64,000 nucleotides of DNA from contig OX597819.1 of NCBI GenBank assembly GCA_951406725.2, positions 41,974,001-42,038,000 on the forward strand, given 5' to 3'. Below the pieces are notes generated by a model. It searched no databases. It worked only from the letters and a program-made list of their open reading frames with translations, and was not told the DNA's origin. A program made the translations under genes and the position numbers. This stretch comes from Octopus vulgaris. Its lineage: Eukaryota. Within the stretch, counting starts at the first letter, position 1. Each line of letters begins with the position of its first letter. Below are positions 1,213 to 63,530 of this stretch, piece by piece.

Positions 1213-4200
1213 ATGCTTGAATGTTGTCAGGTCAGAAGAGAGATCAGACGAAAATGCCTAAAAATCGATCACCGCCACCACAACAACCCTCTTCTTTTCA
1301 GGCGCCGAATTGCACCCCTCCCCCCCCACATCTCCTTCCCAGTTTTCAGAGTTGGCACTGTCAATGTTGGTACACTGAAAGGTAGGTCTAGTGAGATTGT
1401 AGAGATGCTTGAGAGAAGACGGGTTGATGTATGCTGCATACAAGAGGTAAGGTCGAGAGGTGCTTCAGCTAGGGTCCTCACAGGCAAGGCACATAGGTAT
1501 AAAGTCTTCTGGCAAGGTAACATGGATGGGGTAGGGGGTGTAGGCATTCTCCTTGCGGAGAAATGGGTGGATAAGGTCATAGAGGTTGTCAGGGTTTGCG
1601 ATAGAGTGCTTAAGCTCAGGTTAGTCCTACAGAGTGGCACAGCTACGATTATCTCCGCCTATGCCCCACAAGTGGGGCTACCAAATGATCAGAAGGACTA
1701 CTTTTATGATACCCTTCTACAGGCTACCTCAAAGACTAGTGGCAAGGACCTCATCTTTGTGGGTGGAGACTTTAATGGGCATGTTAGGCAGGAATCGGGT
1801 ATCTTAACTGGGGTTCACGGTGGCCATGGTATTGGCACCAGAAATGATGAGGGAACTAGACTACTGGAATTCTGTGATGCATGTAACCTTTTAATCTGCA
1901 ACACTAACTTCAGGAAGCCTGACTGCCACCTTATAACTTATCAGTCAGGGGACTCCGCGAGCCAAATAGACTTCATCCTCACCAGACAGTGGGATGCAGG
2001 GTCGCTCTTAAATACAAAGACCCTCCCAGGTGAAGAGTGTATCCCTCAGCATAGGCTAATAATTAGTGACTTTAGGCTTGAGGCCAGAAGGACTCCAAGA
2101 AACAGACCAATCCAGAAAAGAAGGATTTGGAAGCTAAAGAACCCTTCACATGGTCAGAGACTTAGGGACATCCTCATCAAGAAATTTGATGAGAGGGAGG
2201 AGGAGCTACAGACGTCGGACATAGAAGGTAGCTGGAAATTCCTACGGGACAACTTGCTGAGTGCCACAGACCAAGTCTGTGGATGGTGCAAAGTTCCTTC
2301 CAGACCTAGAGTTACGTGGTGGTGGAATAGTGCAGTAGACAAAGCCATTAGTTCAAAGAAACAGGCCTGGAGAGCCTGGAAGGATGGAGGTAGCAGGGAA
2401 CCGTACCAAGTAGCCAAAAGGGAGACCGGGCGGCAGGTATACATAGCCAAAGATATAGCAGAAAAGAAGAAGTTTGCCAATGTCCAGCGACGTGAGGACC
2501 AAAGAACTGAGGTATTTCGTATTGCTAGACAGTGTGTGAGAGAAAATAGGATGTTACAGGAGAGAAATGTGTCCGCATGGATGATGGGGCACTTGCTTTT
2601 AATGTTGGTGAAAAGAAAGAGGCTTGGAGAAGCCATTATGAAAGACTGCTGAATGTGGAGAATGAATGGGAGGAGGAGAGCCTGCCAAATGTTGACCCAG
2701 TAGAGGGACCAGCTATCCAAATAGACAGCTCCCTTGTAGTTAAGGCAATTAAGGATATGAAACCAGGTAAAGCCCCCGGCCCATCAGGTATCACTGCTGA
2801 GATGCTTAAAACAGCTGGTTATGTGGGCTATGGCCTAGTCACCCGTATTGTTAACCAGGTAGTTCATAGTGGAGTCATACCCAATGACTGGCGTAGCAGC
2901 ACCATAGTCAACTGCTACAAGGGTAAGGGTGATGCTCTAGATAGAAATAACTACAGGGGTATTAAACTGTTGGATCAGGTGATGAAGGTCACAGAGAGGG
3001 TCATAACCCATCTCATTAGGGAGAGAATTTGCTTAGATGAGATGCAGTTCGGTTTTGTGCCGGGTAGAAGCACCACTGATGCTATATTCCTGGTCCGACA
3101 ACTGCAGGAGAAGTACCTAGCTAAAGATAAACCCCTCTACATAGCTTTTGTGGACTTGGAGAAAGCCTTTGACAGGGTTCCCCGATCCCTTATCTGGTGG
3201 TCGATGCGGAAACTGGAGATTGACGAATGGCTAATAAGGGCTGTACAGGCTCTATACAGAGAGGCTGTCAGCAAGGTTAGGATTGGCAACGAATATAGTG
3301 AAGAATTCCAGGTAGAAGTAGGTGTACACCAGGGCTCAGCCCTCAGTCCCCTTTTATTCATCATATTCAGGCAATAACAGAGGAATTCAAAACAGGTTGC
3401 CCCTGGGAGCTCCTCTATGCTGATGACCTGGCCCTCATAGCAGAATCACTACCGGAACTAAAAAAGAAATTTCGGGTGTGGAAACAAGGGTTAGAATCAA
3501 AGGGCCTTAGAGTAAATGTAGCGAAGACCAAAGTTATATTATGCAGAAAGGCAAACTCAGCACACACCCCATCGGGCAGGTGGCCCTGCTCGAGCTGTAG
3601 GAAAGGTGTAGGTAGAAACTCCATAAGATGCACCCAGTGTAAGCTATGGACGCATAAGAGGTGCAGCAACATCAAAGGGAAATTAACTGATAAGATAGCT
3701 TTCATGTGCGGCAGATGCACAGGGACAATAGACACCACAAATACTCAGAAAACAGATTCCATCACACTCCAGGGGGAGAAACTAGAAGTAGTTGATAGTT
3801 TCCGCTACCTGGGTGACCAAGTTAGTAGTGGGGGCGGATGCTCAGAAAGTGTCACCACTAGAATACGAATAGCCTGGGCAAAGTTTAGAAAGCTCCTACC
3901 CCTACTGGCGACAAAGGATCTCTCACTCAAAGTGAAAGGTAGATTGTATGATGCATGTGTGCGAACCGCCATGCTTCACGGCAGTGAAACATGGGCCGTG
4001 ACTGCAGAGGACATGCGTAGACTTGAAAGAAATGAAGCTAGCATGATCCGCTGGATGTGTAATGTCAGTGTGAATGCACGACAGAGTGTAAGCACCCTGA
4101 GAGAAATGCTAGGCATAAGAAGCATCAGATGCGGTGTGCAAGAGCGACGCTTGCGATGGTATGGTCATGTACTGCGGATGGATGAGGAGAGATGTGTGAA

Positions 4201-4387
4201 GAAGTGCCACTCCTGAACAGTTGAAGGAATCAGGGGGAGAGGTAGACCCAGGAAGACATGGGATGAGGTAGTCAAGCATGACCTCAGAGCGTTGGGCCTC
4301 ACTGAGGCAATGGCGAAGGACCGAGATCTCTGGAGATGTGCTGTGACTACTAAGACCCGGGATGCTTCCGGCACCAGTTCCGCATAG
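1213..4387 (+). pseudogene. Disrupted RTE ORF (endonuclease - reverse transcriptase - PHD finger)
   Basis: ORF-track pieces 1213-2652, 2577-3377 and 3476-4216 join via frameshifts near 2550 and 3368; in-frame TGA at 4214-4216 is followed by TVEGIRGRGRPRKTWDEVV... to TAG at 4385-4387. Confidence 0.9.
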
Positions 4388-4510
4388 CCCCTGCCCATTC
4401 AAAGTACCTTGGATCCTGGAACATCTCACTGTGCTTGAGGAGACCTGTTGAGTCAAGTGCATGTACATGAACATCGAACCAAATATCAATGGAAACAGTA
4501 GTTGTGATAC

Positions 4511-4800
4511 CTGTGCCGGTGGCACATAAAAAGCACCATCCGAACGTGGCCGTTGCCAGTGCCGCCTCGACTGGCTTCTGTGCAGTGGCACATAAAAAGC
4601 ACCATCCGAACGTGACCGATGCCAACCCCGCCTGGAATGGCTTCTGTGCCGGTGGCACATAAAAAGCACCATCCGAACGTGGCCGATGCCAGCACCGCCT
4701 CGACTGGCTTCTGTGCCGGTGGCATATAAAAAGCACCAACCGATAGTGGCCGATGCCAGACCCCTCTGGCACCTGTGCAGGTGGCACGTAAAAAGCACCC
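4511..4800 (+). repeat. ~67-bp tandem array in the RTE 3' UTR (about 4.5 units)
   Basis: Units start at 4511, 4578, 4644, 4711, 4773; core CTGTGCCGGTGGCACATAAAAAGCACC. Confidence 0.9.
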
Positions 4801-5496
4801 ACTACACTCGCGGAGTGGTTGGCGTTAGGAAGGGCATCCAGCTGTAGAAACACTGCCAGATCAGACTGGAGCCTGGAGCAGCCCCTGGCTCCCCAGACCC
4901 CAGTCGAACCGTCCAACCCGTGCTAGCACGGAAAAAGGACGTTAAGCGATGATGATGATGAATTTACTTGCCTTACTCATGGGTGCTTTTGAGAGACATC
5001 TAAACAGTGTCTGATTAAAAATGCAGAGACCTGGAGTACATACTATAAGGCATCCAGTCGGACATCCTTATAGTTCTATCAATTCATGCTCCTGGTTTGG
5101 AGTTTTTTTTTCATCAACACCAAAAGGATAAAACACAAAATTGCTCTTGCACCAGATGCTTTTTATGTGGCACTGGTACTTTTTACATGGAACCAGCACC
5201 ATGAATAAAAAGAAAACTATCTAAAATGAAATTTTAGTCCAAAAAATAAAAAACTGTAGACACAGCTAATCCACAAGTTGTAAAATGATGACGATCATCA
5301 TCATTTAATGTTTGCGTTCCATGCTGGCATAACAAACTTCATTCTTGATTTCAAAGTGGATATTTTATGGTGATTCCTTGTTTGTCAACAGTCAATGAAT
5401 TCACAAGATTAATATTTATGCTAATGTGAAGATAGAGTGTAAATATGCCTTGTGAAAATAACTAGGTAGTGTTAATATGTCTTGACATTTTTATTT

Positions 5497-13632: not shown

Positions 13633-13819
13633 TTTACCTTTTCATATAGTTCTTATAAAAAATATTTTAGAATATCAAGTAAGCATTTTTAATATTAATG
13701 TCAGCACTTCAGTAAATAGACCTCAAGTAAAATATATTACTTTTATGTAGATAGAAGCATTCACATTAATACAATAATATAATTAGAAATTTGTAGTTTA
13801 GTTATAGATTAACACTCAC

Positions 13820-13929
13820 TGTGATCGATGTAAACTGAAAGGTGCATCTGGTACAAGGAAACTTCCCATTAAGGATAAGAATATTAATATCAACACAGGA
13901 GCCAATTGTACAAGAAGATTGTAGCCACT
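13820..13929 (-). CDS. DNAJB12: DNAJB12/14 transmembrane exon (SGYNLLVQLAPVLILIFLSLMGSFLVPDAPFSLHRSQ)
   Basis: gtcttttacag acceptor, GTGAGT donor, 110 bp phase 0 to 2; QLxPxLIL TM motif. Confidence 0.95.
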
Positions 13930-15239
13930 CTGTAAAAGACAAAAAAGGAAATTTTGGAAATATTTCTTCTGATACATTACAGCAAATATCATAGCAGAAT
14001 AAATCAAACAGATTTTATGAAACATTTTTTTCATTAACATTTTAAATTTTTCCTACAAATTCATTTTACAAAATTAGTCTCAAAATAAATGTTTAACAGT
14101 AGAGAGTAGAAGCTAACACAAGCTGCAAACTAGAGAGAACTCAAATCAACACTTCAACAAAATATTTTCCTTTTTAAATCTGTTCTTCATTTACAAGTAG
14201 TGCAAATGGAAAGAGGAAAATGTTTGATATCAAGTAGGTTCAGATCAAAAGGGCTGTATGATAATCCTTTCTTATTTTGGCACAAGTCTCTTTTAATCCT
14301 TATTGTGGGCTGCTATGGTAATAATGATGTTGTTATGTAATCATAGCTCCTAACTACAATATACATGAACAACTTATTATGTAAAGTCCTATGCTAAAGC
14401 ACAACTGATAACAGTAAATTAAAACACTACCTAAATAGGAGGAATTAATTCATTGCTAATACATTAACACAATTGAAAATTCAAAACTTCAGTATACCAA
14501 AGTGTGTGTTGCTATCAGATCAAATCTGGAGGAATATCCAAAGTTACTGAAATCATTTCAGTTTCAAACCTTTAAATTTTCCTCAAAATTTATTTAATTC
14601 TGTTTACTGAGAAGAACTAATTTATAGCAACAAAGAAATAACTTAGCTCACAGAAGACATCACAGTAACCAGAGAATGTTCAATACACCACACTGTGCTG
14701 CCAATAACTTGGGGTTTACCAAAGAGTTTCATTCTACAACAATACTATAATATGGCATGTTTTAAGCATATATATGTAATTTATCATAACCAATCTTTCC
14801 CATCAATTTATGGTTCCTACACAATCAGATTTCTTAACTGTTGAAAGTAAACAGTGAGAGTAATTTTTCTCATTAGTTAATTTTTGGAAACCAAATTTCT
14901 TTTTTTTTCCATCAAGCCTGTTTCAGTTTAGTTAGCTAGGATAATTTATTTTCTTCCAACCAATTTCACCTACATCCCAATATATAGCTAACAAAAAAAA
15001 ATTTTTAATTAAAAAAAATAACTAAGGCTTAAAAATTAACACATATATAAAAGGATACAAAGTTATCAAACGATCACAGTAGCACTGAATTGTAAGAGAT
15101 AACAGACCCCCCCCCGAATAAAGTCAACACACAAATTTGTTTCCCATTGGAATATATAATCCCTTTCTTCTATTCATTTATTTGACCATATTTTCCTTGC
15201 TATTCTCCTTACTAAAAGTGGATAGTAAATTGTAAAGCC

Positions 15240-15592: not shown

Positions 15593-15635
15593 AAACAAAT
15601 AAAAGCATGTGTATGTGTGTGTGTGTGTAAACAGC

Positions 15636-15671
<36 letters not shown>

Positions 15672-15683
<12 letters not shown>

Positions 15684-15970
15684 CCACGAATGGAATTTAT
15701 AAATATTTTAATGCATTGCTATGCGTGTTTCCATGAATCACATGTTTCTTACGATCATAGGCTATATTCCCGGGATGATTACAGTATAGTCTGTGGTATC
15801 CATGGAAACGAATGCATGAATATGATCCACCCAATATCTAGGGATATTATGGACTGTATTGTAAATCATCCCAGGAATATGGACTATGATTGTAAGAAAC
15901 ATGTGATTTGTGGAAACATGCTTAGTGGTGCGTTAGCATATCTATAAATTCCATCCATGGATTATTATTA
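15672..15970. repeat. Long imperfect hairpin (~135-bp arms, ~30-nt loop), MITE-like or hairpin RNA
   Basis: 15681-15806 is the reverse complement of 15837-15963 with ~25 substitutions and 1 indel; preceded by (AAT)n. Confidence 0.9.
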
Positions 15971-16100
15971 CTATACTTATCCTGCATTATATCGGCACAG
16001 CTCAGTGCAACCCAAAAAAACTGCTATTACTGGTTGGTATCATTAGGCTGTAGCCGGCATAATATAATAGGAGCTTTTATATTCATATTCAAAAACTTAA

Positions 16101-16134
<34 letters not shown>

Positions 16135-16211
16135 TTAAATTTTATTTCTTAGGGAATAAAAATTCTGGCATAACAGAGGTTCAAATTATTCTCAATGAAG
16201 AAATATACATT

Positions 16212-16395
16212 TTAATTTAGAGATAGAGGACCCCTTCATCTCACCTTATAAAAAAGAATTTTTATTTTAAATACCTACTATTTTATAACTTGTACCTCAT
16301 GAAACACGTGTAGCCAAGTTATAAAACAGTAGGTATTTAAAATAAAAATTCTTTTTTATAAGGTGAGATGAAGGGGCCTACTATCTCTAAATTAA
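16212..16395. mobile_element. Inverted-repeat element (~80-bp arms) with the 3' half of a hammerhead motif; Penelope-like terminal remnant
   Basis: Arms 16212-16292 / 16316-16395; centre reads CAT GAAA CACGTG TA GCCAAG. Confidence 0.65.
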
Positions 16396-26080: not shown

Positions 26081-26224
26081 CGCCCGTGTACGTAATACGA
26101 AGGCCCTACCAATACCAGCAGCAGCATTGTTAGAGGGAACTTGCTTGTTCTTTTCACTTCGAGTGGCAGAGGAGGACAAGTTAGATTTGTAAACGAAAAA
26201 CTGGCGTTGCCTTGTACGGAATTT
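26081..26224 (-). other. Candidate in-frame cassette exon (48 aa) of DNAJB12/14
   Basis: ctattttcaacag acceptor, GCG|GTAAGC donor, 144 nt, open in phase 0, same phase as the host intron. Confidence 0.5.
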
Positions 26225-28089
26225 CTGTTGAAAATAGTAGCAACAAATTGTCCAACCCATAGCCAAAAAAAAAATGTCATGGTATAAAGAATTTGTTATT
26301 TAGCCTAAGCTTTTCTCAGGTAAAAAAAAAAGTTAAGGCAAACATATTTTTAACAAATATTTCATATGGTTATAAAACTTAAGTACATTTTCTTCTCTTC
26401 AGGGAAAATAAACAGATTATTAAAAAAAGTTTAAAATAATATTTAATTTCATAGAAATAGAAATCAAAAGCTTGATATCAAATTAAAGTGTTTTAATAAA
26501 AAAGAACATAGTGTAAGATCTTGGTGTATAGAAAACCCTCCTGATTGAAACAGTGAAATTGACAAAAGTGTAACGCAAATATTGAATATAAGATCTGTTG
26601 ATGCATTTTCACCCTTCAAGCATGTCGATAAGGATCACTTGGTTCACAAATGAGTGAGATAAGCTAATAAATCTGATCATTAACTTAATTAATAAACAGA
26701 ACATTCTTCTGTCACAAATCAATAGAATCAAAATTTTAGAAAGTGTAAGATGGATGCATTCAATGATAGGCATAGAACTAAGGCTACAAAGCTAAAGCAA
26801 CGATTGCGAAAGGAAATGATGACATCATGATGTTTGCAGAACTCTATAACACAAACAAGAGTATAGGAAAATCTAAAAGGACAACTGATTATGTAGATAA
26901 GACAGGTTAGCATTCCTATTAGATAGGTCACTGTAAGTTACTGACTGATTTTATACCTGGAGCCAAGGTTTAGCCAGATATGCATGAATAGACAGATTAC
27001 TTATAAATATATTCTATATACAAACATATCTTGATTTTTTTTACATCCACTTTTTCTATTTGTTGTTTTTTTTGTGGGGGATGGGGTGGTTGAGACTTGT
27101 TGAGTTAGCATTCTATGGTCAGATACCTTTCCTGATGCTAACCCTTACTTGTTTGCATTAAGGTACAACATTCCACTAGCATAAACAACTTATTGAACTG
27201 CTGAGTTGCAGAATGTATTGTTCATTCAGGAAAAAACAAAAAAAATGTCACTGATGCCCAAATGATGCCAATGCAAAGATACAAATGTGCACACGCATGC
27301 ACACACACTGGATTTCTGTAGTTTCCATTTACCTAATTTCACAGACAAAGCTATAATAGAAGACACTTCGTCCATGATGCTATGCAATGTTACCAAACCC
27401 AAAACCTTATGGTTGCAAAGTGAACTTTTTAACTACATAGCCAACCCTATGCCTATATACAAACATAGAGAATTAAAATAAAGGAAATACTCAACACAAA
27501 CCACTGAATAACAAAATGCAGAGTGTGACCTTGAAGCAGGGGTAGGGGCTCCATCTGTCAAAGTTGCCTGTACATTTTCACATGTATATGCAGTTAAGAG
27601 CAGGATATGTTTTAAGGAAATTAGCAGTTAAGTATGCAATTAAGTCTTATATATATGCACTTATGTTACAAATGTTCATCCAAAGGAAAGGCTGCTGACT
27701 TGGGCTGATACAACTTGGTACCAGTGTTGGTTCAGGCATTGCTGTTAGACTGCAAAGAGCTGGAACAGATACTGCAAAGCATCTTACCCAATTGTCTAAC
27801 AGTTCTGCCAATCCATTGCCCTGGATTGGGACTGTTTTATTAACCCTAAAAGGATGAAAGACAAAGTTGACCTTGGCTAGATTTGGATTCAGAACACAAA
27901 TTGGAACAAATATCGCAAGCATTCTATCCAAAACTCTACTGATTCTGTCAATTCACTACGTATGAAACGGATACAAGATGGCACATTCAAGAGTGGTGGA
28001 CCTGTGAGTGTACCTAAATATTTGACCAGCTATTTCCATACCAAATAGAACTGTAAAAAAATTATTCACTAACAACAATTAAAACTTAC

Positions 28090-34863: not shown

Positions 34864-35313
34864 ACTGGCTTCTGTGCCAGTGGCACGTAAAAAGTACCAC
34901 CCGAACGTAGCTGATGCCAGTGCCCCTTGACTGGCTCCTGTGCCAGTGGCACATAAAGAGCACTATCTGAACATGATTGAATGCCAGGGCTGTCTAACTG
35001 GCTCCCGTGCCGGTGGCACATAAAAAGCACCATCCAAACATGGCCAATGCCCCCTGACTGGCTCCCGTGCTGGTGGCATGTAAAAAGCATTATCCAGACA
35101 TGATCGATGCCAAGGCTGCCTGGCTAGCTCCTGTGCTGGTGACATGTAAAAAGCACCTACTACACTCTCGGAATGGTTGGCATTAGGAAGGGTATCTAGC
35201 TGTAGAAACATTGCCAGATCAGATTGGAGCCTGGTGCAGTTACTGGCTTTCAAAACCTCAGTCAAACTGTCCAACCCAAGCCAGCATAGAATTTTTCAAC
35301 GATGATGATGATG
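34864..35313 (+). mobile_element. RTE 3' fragment with ~60-67-bp tandem array and (GAT)n tail
   Basis: Homologous to 4511-4961. Confidence 0.85.
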
Positions 35314-39245: not shown

Positions 39246-39331
39246 TATGTGTATGTATGTATATATATGTATGCATGTAAATATGTATGTGTGTGTGTAT
39301 ATATATATATATATATTTATTATATAGAAGG

Positions 39332-39382
39332 AGCTTCTACAGGACTAGAACTGTTTCATTCAAGAGAAATCTTCAGGAAGCT
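39332..39382 (-). ncRNA. Type I hammerhead ribozyme motif (sense to DNAJB pre-mRNA)
   Basis: Exact reverse complement of 40687-40737. Confidence 0.7.
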
Positions 39383-39670
39383 AGTTAACAAGAATTGTAT
39401 TGGCATTTATACATTTAGGCAGGTTTAAAGGGGTGGTGGTGGGGGACTTTTTGGGGGTAGGCATAGCGCAAAAAAATCATACTTGGGGGAGTGGTCAAGG
39501 AGTCAGTGGTAAATTAGATAGAAGAATAAATAAAAGAATAAAAAATATATATAGAAGAATAGAGTTTTAGGTAAATAAGGAAATTCTCACTTATACCTAT
39601 ACACATATGTATACATATATACACACACACACACACACATATACATACACACATACATACACACACACCC

Positions 39671-40386: not shown

Positions 40387-40686
40387 GGGTGTGTGTGTAT
40401 GTATGTGTGTATGTATATGTGTGTGTGTGTGTGTATATATGTATACATATGCGTATAGGTATAAGTGAGAATTTCCTTATTTACCTAAAACTCTATTCTT
40501 CTATATATATTTTTTTATTCTCTTTTTTTATTCTTTTATTTATTCTTCTATCTAATTTACCACTGACTCCTTGACCACTCCCCCAAGTATGATTTTTTTG
40601 CGCTATGCCTACCCCCAAAAAGTCCCCCACCACCACCCCTTTAAACCTGCCTAAATGTATAAATGCCAATACAATTCTTGTTAACT

Positions 40687-40737
40687 AGCTTCCTGAAGAT
40701 TTCTCTTGAATGAAACAGTTCTAGTCCTGTAGAAGCT
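40687..40737 (+). ncRNA. Type I hammerhead ribozyme motif
   Basis: AGCTTC-CTGAAGA-TTTC TCTT GAAT-GAAA-CAG TTCTAGTC CTG-TA-GAAGCT; 6-bp stem I, GUA site; first pair of stem II is U.U. Confidence 0.7.
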
Positions 40738-40820
40738 CCTTCTATATAATAAATTAATTTTACTCTGCTATGTATTGAGTACCTTATTTACTGTGGTTAA
40801 CCCCGAATCAACCCGGGACC

Positions 40821-45689: not shown

Positions 45690-46895
45690 TGGTGGAGTCA
45701 ATTTATTCAGAGATTTGGATGCTGGAAGATTTGCAGCTCAGTTACTGGATCTGGGAAATGGAAGCATTCAGCAAAACTGCTTTTGTTTATCAGCCACATG
45801 GAAAGGGTACCTTCCCTACTAACCTGCCTGTGATCCTTCTACAGCTCTTGTGCAACCATAGGTTACATTGGCTACTATATGGAATTCCTACTGACTCATT
45901 TTCTGCATATGGAAAATGGTCACTTCCCAAATAGCAGTATAGCCTTGTCTTCTTTCCTACTTACTAAAAGTCCCAATTTTTGATAGCTAGATTTCCAATG
46001 AAGCCTATCAATTCTAGATTTTCCTTCCAAATTTGAATTGCTTTCTTCTAAATCTTTGACAGGTTCAGTTATGGGAACTAGGTCACCAGTATATAGGAGG
46101 TCTTACAGGCAGGCAGTTATAAATTTGCAGCTCAGCTACTGGATCTGGGAAATGGAAGCATTCAGCAATAGAGACATCACTTTGTCCAGGTTGTCAATTG
46201 GAAACTTATGCAATCAATCAATACTGAGAAAAAAAATTATTTCTTAATTGATACTGTTGTGGACCCCAGTAAGGCAGTGAATTATCCTACTGAGTTTCTT
46301 AACTCTTTGGATCCTCCTGGAATACCTTCTCACAAACTGATATTGAAGAAAGAAGTTCCAACCATGCTTTTGAAAAATCTGGATCCTCCAAAGCTGTGCA
46401 ATGGAACCAGACTGATTGTCAGGCAAATGTATCCATATCTTTTGGAAGCGACAATCCTCACTGGAGAAGGAAAGAGAGAAAATGTGTTTATTCCAAGAGT
46501 TCCACTGATTCCAGCAGACATGCTCTTTGAATCCAAGTGATTCAATTTCCAGTAAGAGTTAGTTTTGCAATGTCTGTTAACAAGAGACAAGGACAATCAC
46601 AGAAAATTATTGGTCTTCACCTCATGCAGCAGTACTTTCCCCATGGTCAGCTCTATGTTGGTTGTTCCAAAGTTAGAAATGGCAACAGTCACTTCATACA
46701 CCAAATGGTAAAACCAAGAATATTGTTCATTCTGCTGCTTTACAGTGATCTCCAAATGTCACAGTGATACAAAATTCTCCCAATGTGATACTCTGTGATA
46801 TAAATCTGAGATGGTAGGGTACTAATAAATGCTTTATTATTATTGCTGTCTTTAGTTTTGGGCTACAGGCCCAATTAGCCTTCCATAGGAGCTAG
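45690..46895 (+). mobile_element. Helitron relic (Pif1-family helicase C-terminus), interrupted by a 350-bp insertion
   Basis: FAAQLLDLGNG, YPTEFLNSLDPPG.P.H.L.LK, LCNGTRL, QFPVRVSFAMSVNK.QGQS, F.HGQLYV; possible 3' hairpin GGGC..GCCC and CTAG at 46892-46895. Confidence 0.88.
45775..46122 (-). repeat. Inverted local copy of 48803-49156, flanked by 46-bp direct repeats
   Basis: Near-identical reverse complement; flanks 45729-45774 and 46123-46168 differ by 1 base. Confidence 0.92.
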
Positions 46896-48589: not shown

Positions 48590-49700
48590 AGTCAAACTTT
48601 GCTGACTTGGAAAAGGCCTTTTATAGAGTTCTATTAGTCACTAAAATAACTAAGGATGGATGAATGGCTTCTGAGAGTAAGAAGAAAGTTAGTAATCAGT
48701 CCAGTATTTTGTGTGTAGGGGCATTAAATAATAATGATAGTGTCAGTCAGGTTTGGTTCTCATCCCTTTCCATTTATTATATAATCTTCCAGGCCATAAC
48801 ATACAAATTCATAACTGACTGCCTGTAAGACCTCCTATATACTGATGACCTAGTTCTCATAACTGAACCTGTCAAAGATTTAGAAGAAAGTAATTCAAAT
48901 TTGGAAGGAAAATCTAGAATTGATAGGCTTCATTGGAAATCTAGCTTTCAAAAATTGGGACTTTTAGTAAGTAGGAAAGAAGACAAGGCTCTACTGAGAT
49001 TGGGGAAGTGACCATTTTCAATATGAAGAAAATGAGTCAGTAGGAATTCCATATAGTAGCCAATGTAACCTATGGTTGCACAAGAGTTGTAGAAGGATCA
49101 CAGGCAGGTTAATAGGGAAGGTACCCTTTCCATGTGGCTGATAAACAAAAGCAGTTGGCAATGAAATAAATTCCTTCAGGTGCTCAGAAGGATTTGTAGA
49201 AGTAGTTGATAGTATTTCCTGCTGGAGGTGGATGGCTGTTCTGAAAGGATAGTAGCAAGAGGAAGAATGATGAATGGGGGAAAAGTTCAGGGAACCGTAA
49301 GCACACCTCGAGTAACAGAGTAGATTGTATGATGCTTTTGTATGAAGTGTGATGTTGCATATTAATGAGATACGGGTTAGAAAGTGGAAGATGTTAAAGA
49401 CTGGAAAGAAATGAGGCAAGCATGCTTTGCTGGATGAGCAGTATGTATATAAACAATGAAGTACAAGTAAACTGAGGGAAAAATTGGATATAAGAGGAAC
49501 AGGAATGAAGTGGACAGGAGAGAAAACTGTGGCCACTATAACCATAAAATATTGAGGATGTCAGCTGTATAAAGAAGTGCAGAGCACTCCAAATGAACAG
49601 AATCTGCAGAAGAAGGAGACCAAGGATGACTTAGGAAGTGGTAAGCTGAGCTCTCAAGAGAACAAACCTCACAAAGGAGATGGTAAAAGAACTGGATGTA
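48590..49700 (+). mobile_element. Old degenerate RTE LINE fragment
   Basis: GACTTGGAAAAGGCCTTT (DLEKAF), CTCCTATATACTGATGACCTA (LLY.DDL), colinear with 3150-4300. Confidence 0.8.
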
Positions 49701-60744: not shown

Positions 60745-61552
60745 AATAACATTTACCTAAGTTTTTAACATCATCTCCTTCAAAATAGTTACCATACACA
60801 GCAATACATCAGTCCCAGGGTTCCTGCCACTTTTGGAATCAGGCCTGGAAGTCATTTTCCATAAGCAAGTCAAGGACCTGTGATTTGCTCTTGAACTCAA
60901 CAATGTGTTAAAATAGTGACCTTTGAGCTACATTTTCATCTGGGGGAAGAGATAGAAGTCTGCAAGCACTAAATTTCACAACTACAGCGGGTGCAGAAGT
61001 GATACCATGCTGTTTTTGGTGAAAAACTCATGAGTGAGGAGACCTTGGAGATAAGGTGCATTGTTGTCACAAAGAATCCAATTTTTTATGCTTCACAGAT
61101 CCGGTGGCTTTCACCAAATGTCCAACCTCAAATGCTTCAAAATGTTGCAGTAGAACTCTTGATTGATGGTCTGGCCCTAGGGGATGAATTCTTGATGCAC
61201 AACACACATTTCTGGGGGTGACACTCATGGCAGGTCTTCCAGACATTCTTTTGCTTTTGAAGCACCTGTGCCACTTGAAATATTGCTTACGACCCATTGC
61301 CTCATTGCTGTAAGCTTGCTGAAGCATGCTCAATATCTCTGTAGCAGACTTCTCAAGTTTAACACAAGATTTCACATTGGCTCTTTGTTCCTGTCCATTA
61401 CAAAAATTGAAGACTACAGCACACAGATGAACACAAAAATACAAATTTCACCACTTGCAAAGTAAACACTGCAATGTCACTCAGCATATTGCCTCATGAA
61501 GGTCACTGCCAGCTCTCACAACAGAACTAGTCTGGGAACTTTTTGACATCAC
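60745..61552 (-). mobile_element. Mariner relic (internally deleted)
   Basis: EQRANVKSCVKLEKSATEILSMLQQAY..MGRKQYFKWHRCF mariner HTH; terminal sequence shared with 62752. Confidence 0.8.
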
Positions 61553-62751: not shown

Positions 62752-63530
62752 CGAGGTGGTGTCAAAAGTTTTCTGGACTAGTTCTGTAGGGTGCCAACAG
62801 ATGGCAGCATATGGTTGCATGTGCAGTGAGAGCTAGCAGCGACCTTCATGAGGTAGTGTGCCAAGTGACATCACTGCATTTACTTCACAAGCTGAGAAAT
62901 TTGTGTTTCGTATTCACGTGTGTGGTAGTCTGCGATTTTGTCATAGACAAGAACAAAGAGCCAACGTGAAATTTTGCATTAAACTAGGGAAGTCTGCTAC
63001 AGAGCAGAGACACTGAGCATGCTTTGGTAAGCTTACAACAACGAGGCAATGGGTCACACACACAATGTTTCAAGTGACACAGAAGAACATCCCTGGAAGA
63101 CAATAAGTGATATGGGAAGAACTGTCACGAGTGTCACCCATGGAAATGTGGCATTGTGCATTGAGAATTTGTCCCCCAGGGCCAGACTGTCAATCGAGAG
63201 TTCTACTGCAACGTTTTGAAGCGTTTGAGGGAGGACATTTGGTGAAAACAACTGGATCTGTGGAGCATGAAGAATCCAATTCTTCATGACAACAATGCAC
63301 TCTGTCACTGAGCTTTCTTCACTTGTGAGTTTCTTGTCAAAAACAATATGGTATCACACCTGCTTGATTTGCCAGATTTACCACCTGCGGACCTTCAGCT
63401 CTTTCCCAATGTGAAAATGCAACTCAAAGGTTGCTGTTTTAACATCATTGTCAAGATCTGGCGTGAATTGCAGATGGTCCTTGACTTGCTTATGGAAAGC
63501 AACTTCCTGGCTGGATTCCAAAAGTGGTTG
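62752..63530 (+). mobile_element. Mariner relic, same family as 60745-61552
   Basis: TA|CGAGGTGGTGTCAAAAGTT TIR; PDLPPADLQLFPNVKMQLKG (YSPDLAPSD.LF motif). Confidence 0.8.

What the first reader, a model, noticed from the sequence alone, without database searches (positions are those of the whole stretch)
15672..15970. 300-nt hairpin with strongly one-sided wobble mismatches
Seen (hand count): of ~25 substitutions between the arms, 17 give G.U pairs on the + strand, 4 give G.U on the - strand and 4 are transversions. Neutral decay of a MITE should be roughly symmetric. Inference A: a + strand (antisense) hairpin RNA under selection to stay paired, like an endo-siRNA hairpin precursor. Inference B: in the minus-strand pre-mRNA those 17 positions are A.C mismatches, a context ADAR favours, ~1.7 kb before the TM exon in an animal group known for heavy editing. 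Inference C: strand-biased C-to-T deamination.
Basis: partly seen in the sequence, partly recalled or inferred. Interest (0 to 1): 0.72.

Follow-up and report, generated by a model that had tools for sequence, protein, structure and literature searches.

The report
Old Penelope stump in octopus intron
The hairpin and its one-sided wobble pairs are real, but it is the folded-back end of an old Penelope-type jumping gene in an intron of an octopus chaperone gene, one of at least 47 such mirror-image copies, and its lopsidedness is likely the chance extreme among them rather than the mark of a working RNA.

Summary
The count holds: 17 G·U, 4-5 A·C and 4 transversions on the + strand. The hairpin is not a MITE. 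It is a head-to-head pair of 5'-truncated 3' ends of a decayed Penelope-like retrotransposon, with a one-sided tail. Long copies carry RT and GIY-YIG-type remnants with Hydra-clade motifs. It lies in an intron of octopus DNAJB12 (minus strand), 1.74 kb before the TM exon.

Across 47 palindromic copies, wobble direction is coin-like: no overdispersion (p=0.42), and 279:287 when oriented by the element. The family therefore has no built-in bias. This copy is the most lopsided of the 47. The chance that some copy is this extreme is 0.23 on transitions alone and 0.06-0.12 once its few transversions are counted.

Of 16 wobbles, 11 are + strand C>T (6 at CpG) and 5 are A>G. Repeats across the host gene lean mildly the same way (C>T/G>A 1.22, p=0.03). 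Best reading: neutral decay, chance plus weak regional skew (~0.75). Small RNAs, editing and conservation could not be tested. The scan noted similar octopus Penelope stumps before, on other DNA.

The parts
15608..15629 (.). (TG)n microsatellite at the left flank; likely part of the insertion site
   Evidence: sequence
15636..15683 (-). (AAT)n run = expanded (ATT)n at the 3' end of the inverted arm; this arm has no tail
   Evidence: sequence; 3' ends of family arms cluster at the ATT run
15658..15806 (-). Left arm: inverted, 5'-truncated copy of the element's 3' end (family columns 318-465, 87% to the family majority)
15805..15971 (+). Right arm: sense copy of the element's 3' end, 5'-truncated at family column 286; its extra 5' bases 15807-15836 form the unpaired centre of the hairpin
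15972..16101 (+). One-sided tail, about 130 nt here (about 16 nt short of the family's fixed end); in copy L083 the last 45 columns of the tail reference lie 80 nt upstream of the ORF start, as in a PLE partial tandem
16101..16128 (.). (CA)n microsatellite abutting the tail end; 46 of 51 family tail ends abut TA/CA repeats vs 426 of 2000 random places
13819..13932 (-). DNAJB12 transmembrane exon, 1.74 kb downstream of the hairpin in the pre-mRNA
26081..26227 (-). DNAJB12 cassette exon (in P0002, absent from P0003), the exon upstream of the hairpin's intron

Best explanation
The hairpin is a head-to-head pair of truncated 3' ends of a decayed Penelope-like retrotransposon in an intron of octopus DNAJB12, and its one-sided G·U pattern is likely a neutral chance extreme, helped slightly by a weak regional + strand C>T skew. 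Shown: the same sequence ends longer copies that carry reverse-transcriptase and GIY-YIG-type remnants; the palindrome with a one-sided tail recurs at 47 loci; wobble direction across these loci is coin-like. Inferred: the element's own insertion process laid down the inverted arm, so the arms started nearly identical. Each arm then drifted about 12% from the family majority, on the order of tens of millions of years by a published calibration, mostly by C>T/G>A transitions, many at CpG. Every transition gives G·T on one strand and A·C on the other, so each is a coin toss, and here 16 of 20 fell the same way. The minus-strand pre-mRNA would fold and is a likely passive ADAR substrate like any intronic inverted repeat (untested).
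For: Dispersed family: 40 of 1427 first-look candidates scored, giving 86 matches; 63 exact matches of one 20-mer. 191 de-duplicated arms, median 84% to the majority, with staggered 5' starts and fixed 3' ends. Long copies align to 700-800-aa proteins over RT, thumb and EN (tblastn E to 1e-31); L257 runs from the N-terminal RWK motif through RT to the hairpin sequence. Atlas look-alike with GIY-YIG on 11% of members (a lead). 47 head-to-head copies: overdispersion chi2 48.3, df 47, p=0.42; oriented by the tail-bearing arm 279:287 (35 copies), by the longer arm 371:359 (44 copies). P(at least one of 47 as extreme) = 0.23 on transitions. This copy is ordinary in folding energy per base (14th of 37), arm divergence (rank 32 of 47) and shared changes (rank 29 of 47). 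Polarised wobbles: 11 C>T (6 at CpG), 5 A>G. Gene-wide repeats: + strand C>T 241/1907 vs G>A 180/1742, ratio 1.22, p=0.033. A mariner inverted pair in intron 1 leans the same way, 25:10, p=0.017. Inverted truncated copies, one-sided tails and (TA)n targeting are described for PLEs (PMC8557442, PMC3846280, passages).
Against: This copy is the most lopsided of the 47 and has the highest wobble share of all mismatches (16 of 23, 0.70; next 0.59; median 0.39). With its few transversions counted, single-copy p=0.0014, and P(some copy of 47) = 0.06, or 0.12 with an assumed locus skew. Its unpaired share on the better strand ranks 3rd lowest of 47. The regional skew gives a G·U share of only 0.54, under which 16 of 20 still has p=0.015. 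The skew is uneven between 20-kb bins, and the bin holding the hairpin has a G·U share of 0.48. The 5 A>G changes lean the same way although the region shows no A>G skew (ratio 0.87). Three other inverted pairs in the window show no lean (3:3, 2:2, 1:2). Small RNA, editing and orthologue data were not available.
Confidence: 0.75

Rival explanations
1. A strong local strand-biased mutation or repair process (replication-linked deamination, or biased repair of an extruded DNA hairpin) made + strand C>T and A>G much commoner at this spot, so the asymmetry is real but mutational.
For: 11 of 16 wobbles are + strand C>T, and all 6 CpG transitions fall on +. Gene-wide ratio 1.22. Mariner pair 25:10, its right arm 11 C>T vs 2 G>A. 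CpG C>T:G>A on + changes from 45:74 left of the gene region to 94:65 in the gene and to its right (Fisher p=7e-4, regions chosen after seeing bins).
Against: No overdispersion among 47 siblings, so hairpin-driven bias is not general. The mariner left arm is even (4:4). The tail next to the hairpin shows 0 C>T vs 1 G>A. The direction is opposite to mammalian transcription-induced C>T on the coding strand.
Confidence: 0.12
2. The stump has been exapted as a + strand (antisense to DNAJB12) hairpin RNA, and selection removed changes that break + strand pairing while tolerating G·U.
For: Highest wobble share of 47 copies; only 7 non-pairing positions in 123; single-copy p=0.0014. The + strand folds 17-24 kcal/mol better than the - strand.
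Against: Both arms have drifted as far as the median copy (0.122 vs 0.125), with no excess of changes shared by both arms. No Rfam family over the hairpin at E<=1. Molluscs were reported to lack a dedicated siRNA pathway (PMC12479628, passages). The locus was singled out for being lopsided.
Confidence: 0.07
3. The minus-strand pre-mRNA hairpin is a functional ADAR platform whose A·C mismatches were favoured because they are editable, tuning splicing of the TM or cassette exon.
For: The pre-mRNA strand folds at -150 kcal/mol, and the wobble sites are A·C on it. Repeats are the main targets of metazoan editing (PMC9989829, passages). ADAR's preference for A opposite C is recalled, from no call. 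A cassette exon lies upstream in this gene.
Against: Editing cannot change the DNA. Selection for pairing of the pre-mRNA would tolerate G·U as well as editable A·C, so it predicts few transversions but not one-sidedness (inference). The hairpin is 1.74 kb and 10.1 kb from the flanking exons. Editability falls with repeat age.
Confidence: 0.05

Closest known systems
Hydra-clade C-terminal EN+ Penelope-like elements (Craig et al. 2021, PMC8557442), including Hydra-1_Obim of Octopus bimaculoides
   Same: RT followed by a C-terminal GIY-YIG-type EN; RWK/RWR N-terminal motif, DK(S/T) motif, CxCX5C linker, CxxC before the conserved E and CxH after the conserved N; no CCHH seen; insertion beside (TA)n.
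   Different: A different family: the N-terminus of L083 differs by eye from the supplement's Hydra-1_Obim protein, and none of 6 family motifs occurs in the supplement text held. All copies seen are decayed. The tail is about 140 nt rather than 30-40. No canonical hammerhead was found.
Inverted-pLTR insertion units of PLEs (Penelope of Drosophila; Adineta vaga Pen families, PMC3846280; anole PAc, PMC11167929)
   Same: Head-to-head inverted 5'-truncated copy, tail on one arm only, ends at ATT-rich DNA, tail sequence matching the region in front of the next ORF.
   Different: Here both arms are cut to about 150-170 nt, leaving a compact 300-nt palindrome that mimics a MITE; no target-site duplication was recognised between the flanking microsatellites.
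MITEs / foldback DNA transposons
   Same: Short non-coding palindrome, many dispersed copies.
   Different: The centre varies from copy to copy, most copies are single arms, and the arms continue into an RT ORF in long copies.
Intronic inverted repeats as passive A-to-I substrates (PMC9989829)
   Same: A long imperfect duplex is predicted in an intron of a pre-mRNA.
   Different: Editing at this locus is not shown; the repeat is old, which lowers expected editability.

Membership tests
EN+ Penelope-like element | ORF with PLE-type RT followed by GIY-YIG endonuclease (in long copies of the family) | tested here: met
   Long copies align in order to 713-806-aa proteins over RT (YRDD), thumb and EN. 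Direct Pfam support is weak: RVT_1 E=0.13 on one of 10 fragments, GIY-YIG E=0.012 on one of 8 relatives, Atlas GIY-YIG on 11% of one cluster; the call rests on motifs and the published clade description.
EN+ Penelope-like element | Frequent 5' truncation with a fixed 3' end | tested here: met
   191 arms: staggered starts, ends clustered at the ATT run or the tail end
EN+ Penelope-like element | Inverted 5'-truncated copy adjoining head to head | tested here: met
   47 distinct loci; 10 of 38 loci fetched by a single-arm 20-mer
EN+ Penelope-like element | Tail on one end only | tested here: met
   35 of 47 palindromes have a tail on exactly one arm within the DNA fetched; about 140 nt, longer than the published 30-40 bp
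EN+ Penelope-like element | Partial tandem (pLTR) linking the 3' region to the next ORF start | tested here: met
   One locus only (L083 = L067 = L256): tail columns 543-587 lie 80 nt before an ATG-started ORF with RWR
EN+ Penelope-like element | Canonical hammerhead ribozyme in the pLTR | tested here: inconclusive
   No Rfam hammerhead in 16 loci or L083. A loose descriptor finds CUGA(A/G)GA and GAAA..UH with a 6-7-bp stem I in the majority (3 of 500 shuffles hit) and in 4 family copies, but with about 105 nt between cores and no stem II. The focal copy is truncated inside the CUGA core.
Hydra clade of PLEs | RWK and DKT motifs in the N-terminal region | tested here: met
   RWR in L083, RWK and DKS in L257; few copies reach this region and exact DKT was not seen in the family
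Hydra clade of PLEs | CxCX5C linker; CxxC and CxH flanking the conserved E and N; CCHH absent | tested here: met
   CxCX5C in L074/L090, L110, L114; CNLCLEE-type in 19 and CxH-type in 23 locus rows, duplicates of overlapping loci included; no cysteine pair between the VY and YIG/YVG motifs in the fragments read
Hydra clade of PLEs | Insertion into (TA)n | tested here: met
   46 of 51 tail ends followed by TA/CA repeats vs 426 of 2000 random places
Hydra clade of PLEs | Placement in the Hydra clade on an RT tree | not tested
   No reference PLE proteins were available as tool sequences; assignment is by motifs
MITE | Fixed length and centre, terminal inverted repeats of a DNA transposon, TSD | tested here: not met
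   Centres and arm lengths vary (46-367 aligned columns); arms are 3' ends of an RT element
Endo-siRNA hairpin RNA | Transcribed on the better-pairing strand and diced into phased 21-nt RNAs | not testable with these tools
   No small-RNA or stranded raw reads were offered
Endo-siRNA hairpin RNA | Compensatory changes or reduced divergence | tested here: not met
   Shared changes 3 of 123 (median rate 0.029), divergence equal to the family median; within-genome test only

The most novel reading that the evidence does not exclude
A dead Penelope stump has been recruited as an antisense hairpin RNA inside octopus DNAJB12, and selection on + strand pairing has left a one-sided G·U signature, in an animal group reported to lack an endo-siRNA pathway.
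Probability: 0.07. Interest if true: 0.55.

Novelty: new member of a known kind. Interest (0 to 1): 0.12.

Why it matters
Little, on the best reading: one more PLE stump, from a Hydra-type octopus family that differs from the published Hydra-1_Obim. The useful by-product is a control. PLE palindromes put the same sequence on both strands at one locus, so they measure local strand bias of mutation free of sequence context, and 47 of them show that a 4:1 wobble split can arise without function. If the exaptation reading were true it would be a long functional hairpin RNA in a mollusc, recognisable from sequence alone.

Tried and rejected
MITE with an asymmetric consensus: rejected.

ADAR-edited element RNA as the template of insertion: rejected. 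Across 191 arms, sense-strand A>G (0.043) is lower than T>C (0.065), and only 5 of 16 focal wobbles are A>G. That family-level contrast is confounded by sequence context and majority errors at decayed CpG and is not read further.

Host-gene transcription-induced deamination as in mammals: it predicts the opposite strand.

Expression and editing: no RNA holder listed on record. Contigs of guessed-RNA runs were laid: X1 and X2; X1, X3, X4, X5; 5 of 22 guessed-RNA rows. Two X1 contigs (15692-15776, 15888-15970) had 0 differences and one X4 contig (15874-15990) had 1. Contigs drop rare variants and these runs may be DNA, so this is no evidence either way.

Orthologues: the genome search offers no relatives for this genome.

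Pfam gave no significant family on the 14 element fragments scanned. The search for homologous proteins 'longer' on L114 found none. Rfam gave nothing over the hairpin. Two gapped palindrome patterns returned only 2 and 5 loci. The mariner pair could not be polarised (no depth) and was redone. Literature searches for one-sided wobble decay in inverted repeats and for octopus endo-siRNA hairpins gave nothing on this element; the library is partial. The place and sequence look-ups of earlier findings were blank.

Full report
Observation. The window holds a 300-nt palindrome at 15672-15972. Both strands fold far better than shuffles: + -167 kcal/mol (z -20.3), - -150.4 (z -17.6). Short contigs of runs X19 and X20 reproduce both arms without substitutions, so the mismatches are unlikely to be assembly errors.

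Setting. The host gene is DNAJB12 on the minus strand; the nearest named proteins, 98% identical over one exon, are from Octopus species. Exons map at 54771-54550, 47773-47603, 45476-45339, 42251-42192, 38451-38362, 26227-26081 (cassette), 13932-13819 (TM), about 12460-12300 and 11459-11349; the first coding exon lies beyond the window, at window-equivalent 75046-74915. The hairpin is 1.74 kb before the TM exon.

What the element is. A search of the genome returned 86 matches from 40 scored of 1427 candidates. Walking upstream through longer copies led into a broken ORF. A 210-aa piece found 2154 relatives at E<=0.001. Three of the long ones align along eight long family copies over RT, thumb and endonuclease, and copy L257 runs from the N-terminus through RT to the hairpin sequence. 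Pfam itself gave only weak hits and the Atlas a GIY-YIG lead. The motifs match the Hydra clade as described in section 11 of PMC8557442 (read whole): RWK/RWR, DKS, CxCX5C, CxxC..E, CxH, no CCHH seen, and tail ends beside TA/CA repeats in 46 of 51 cases against 426 of 2000 random places. The family differs from Hydra-1_Obim (supplement passages). 191 de-duplicated arms are a median 84% identical to the per-column majority, with staggered 5' starts and fixed 3' ends. In the window, the left arm is an inverted copy of columns 318-465 and the right arm a sense copy of columns 286-581 including the tail. This is the inverted, one-tailed arrangement described for PLEs (PMC8557442, PMC3846280, PMC11167929; passages). 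A hammerhead-like pair of cores exists in the family, but without stem II, and the focal copy is cut inside it. Each arm is 12% from the majority; PMC13282606 (passages) equates JC 0.09 with 25 and 0.2 with 56 million years, so an age of tens of millions of years is inferred.

Is the asymmetry special? Of the 205 loci then held (overlapping duplicates removed), 47 are head-to-head palindromes with at least 60 shared columns (46-367 after trimming and gap removal). Most were found by similarity to palindromic queries, so they are not a random sample. Columns in the microsatellite and tail were left out. Their G·U versus A·C counts show no overdispersion (chi2 48.3, df 47, p=0.42). Oriented by the tail-bearing arm the totals are 279:287 (35 copies); by the arm with the longer 5' end, 371:359 (44 copies). 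So neither the consensus nor the insertion mechanism carries the bias. The focal copy, 16:4 here (p=0.012), is the most extreme; the expected number this extreme is 0.26 and P(at least one) is 0.23. It also has few transversions (3 of 23 mismatches, family 37%). Transversion share varies between copies beyond chance (p=1e-6). With a beta-binomial fitted to the other 46, the focal wobble share has single-copy p=0.0014 and family-wise p=0.06, or 0.12 with an assumed locus skew of 0.2 logit. This is the main result against the neutral reading. It is softened by selection: the locus was reported because it looked lopsided, and the genome holds more such copies than the 47 examined. In folding energy per base (14th of 37), arm divergence (32nd of 47) and changes shared by both arms (3 of 123; 29th of 47) it is ordinary.

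Which mutations made the wobbles? Against the family majority, 11 are + strand C>T (6 at CpG) and 5 are A>G, versus 1 G>A and 3 T>C. Repeats in the gene span, polarised by majority with the hairpin left out, show C>T 241/1907 vs G>A 180/1742 (ratio 1.22, p=0.033) and no A>G skew (0.87), a G·U share of 0.54; flanks give 0.90 and 1.12; 20-kb bins range 0.71-1.82 and the hairpin's own bin has a G·U share of 0.48. A pair of opposed mariner fragments in intron 1 gives 25:10 the same way (p=0.017), driven by one arm (11:2 vs 4:4); three other inverted pairs give 3:3, 2:2, 1:2. At 0.54, 16 of 20 still has p=0.015, so the skew helps little. Its direction is opposite to the coding-strand C>T reported for mammalian transcription, while the same paper links C>T asymmetry most to replication origins (PMC2839347, passages); a replication-linked cause here is a guess.

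A (antisense hairpin RNA): no compensatory excess, no Rfam match, and molluscs were reported to lack a dedicated siRNA pathway (PMC12479628, passages); probability about 0.07. B (ADAR): the pre-mRNA would fold and may well be edited, as repeats are the main editing targets (PMC9989829, passages), but that is a consequence; it does not predict one-sidedness; as a selected function about 0.05. C (strand-biased C>T): a weak form is part of the best explanation; a strong local form about 0.12. Expression, editing, small RNAs and orthology could not be tested.

Earlier notes. Three unreviewed notes of this scan describe Penelope stumps in octopus introns on other DNA. The Hydra assignment here was reached before reading them; one note pointed to Hydra-1_Obim, which was then checked.

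Verdict. Real hairpin, correct count, known kind of insertion, asymmetry most likely neutral. Interest 0.12. File S3-type sequence supplements of PMC8557442 were seen only as search passages, so a closer published relative there cannot be fully excluded; Repbase and Dfam were not available.

Noticed in passing
window 60993-61202 and 63154-63363: Two opposed mariner-like fragments (family label recalled from the translated motif, not from a call) in DNAJB12 intron 1; 25 G·U vs 10 A·C on +, same direction as the hairpin; 2228 first-look candidates in the genome.
   Followed up: yes
G000:C6:41874001-42138000 (window -100 kb to +164 kb): CpG C>T:G>A on the + strand is 45:74 left of window position -17 kb and 94:65 in the gene and to its right (Fisher p=7e-4, post hoc); possibly a replication-direction switch.
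   Followed up: partly
window 26081-26227 (-): Cassette exon present in P0002 and absent from P0003, just before the TM exon; P0001 uses an alternative last exon 17 kb left of the window.
   Followed up: partly
window 45775-46127 / 48804-49156, with 46172-46540: 353-nt inverted pair, 96% complementary, flanking the 47773-47603 exon; a Pif1 helicase 2B fragment (E 1e-15) lies between the arms.
   Followed up: partly
window 39315-39561 / 40508-40754: 247-nt inverted pair, 97% complementary, enclosing further inverted microsatellite-rich arms; about 1.4 kb palindrome-like insert, possibly a younger stump.
   Followed up: no
window 16145-16395: Second short hairpin right after the tail: 77 Watson-Crick pairs, 4 mismatches; a high-copy repeat by contig depth.
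   Followed up: partly
window 1213-4216 (+): Broken LINE with endonuclease and RT reading frames (RTE-like by recalled motifs).
   Followed up: no
window 4506-4933 and 34867-35291: Tandem 66-67-nt units of a dispersed repeat.
   Followed up: no
L083:1865-2440: Tail end followed by the element's ORF start, then a second tail followed by a CTGAAGAG hammerhead-type core without a clear second core.
   Followed up: partly
L040 (G000:C6:41140200-41141600): A fragment of a different PLE (thumb/linker-like peptide) lies next to a copy of this family.
   Followed up: no
L084, L086, L087 (C29): Three near-identical loci carrying the same decayed copy, likely segmental duplicates.
   Followed up: no
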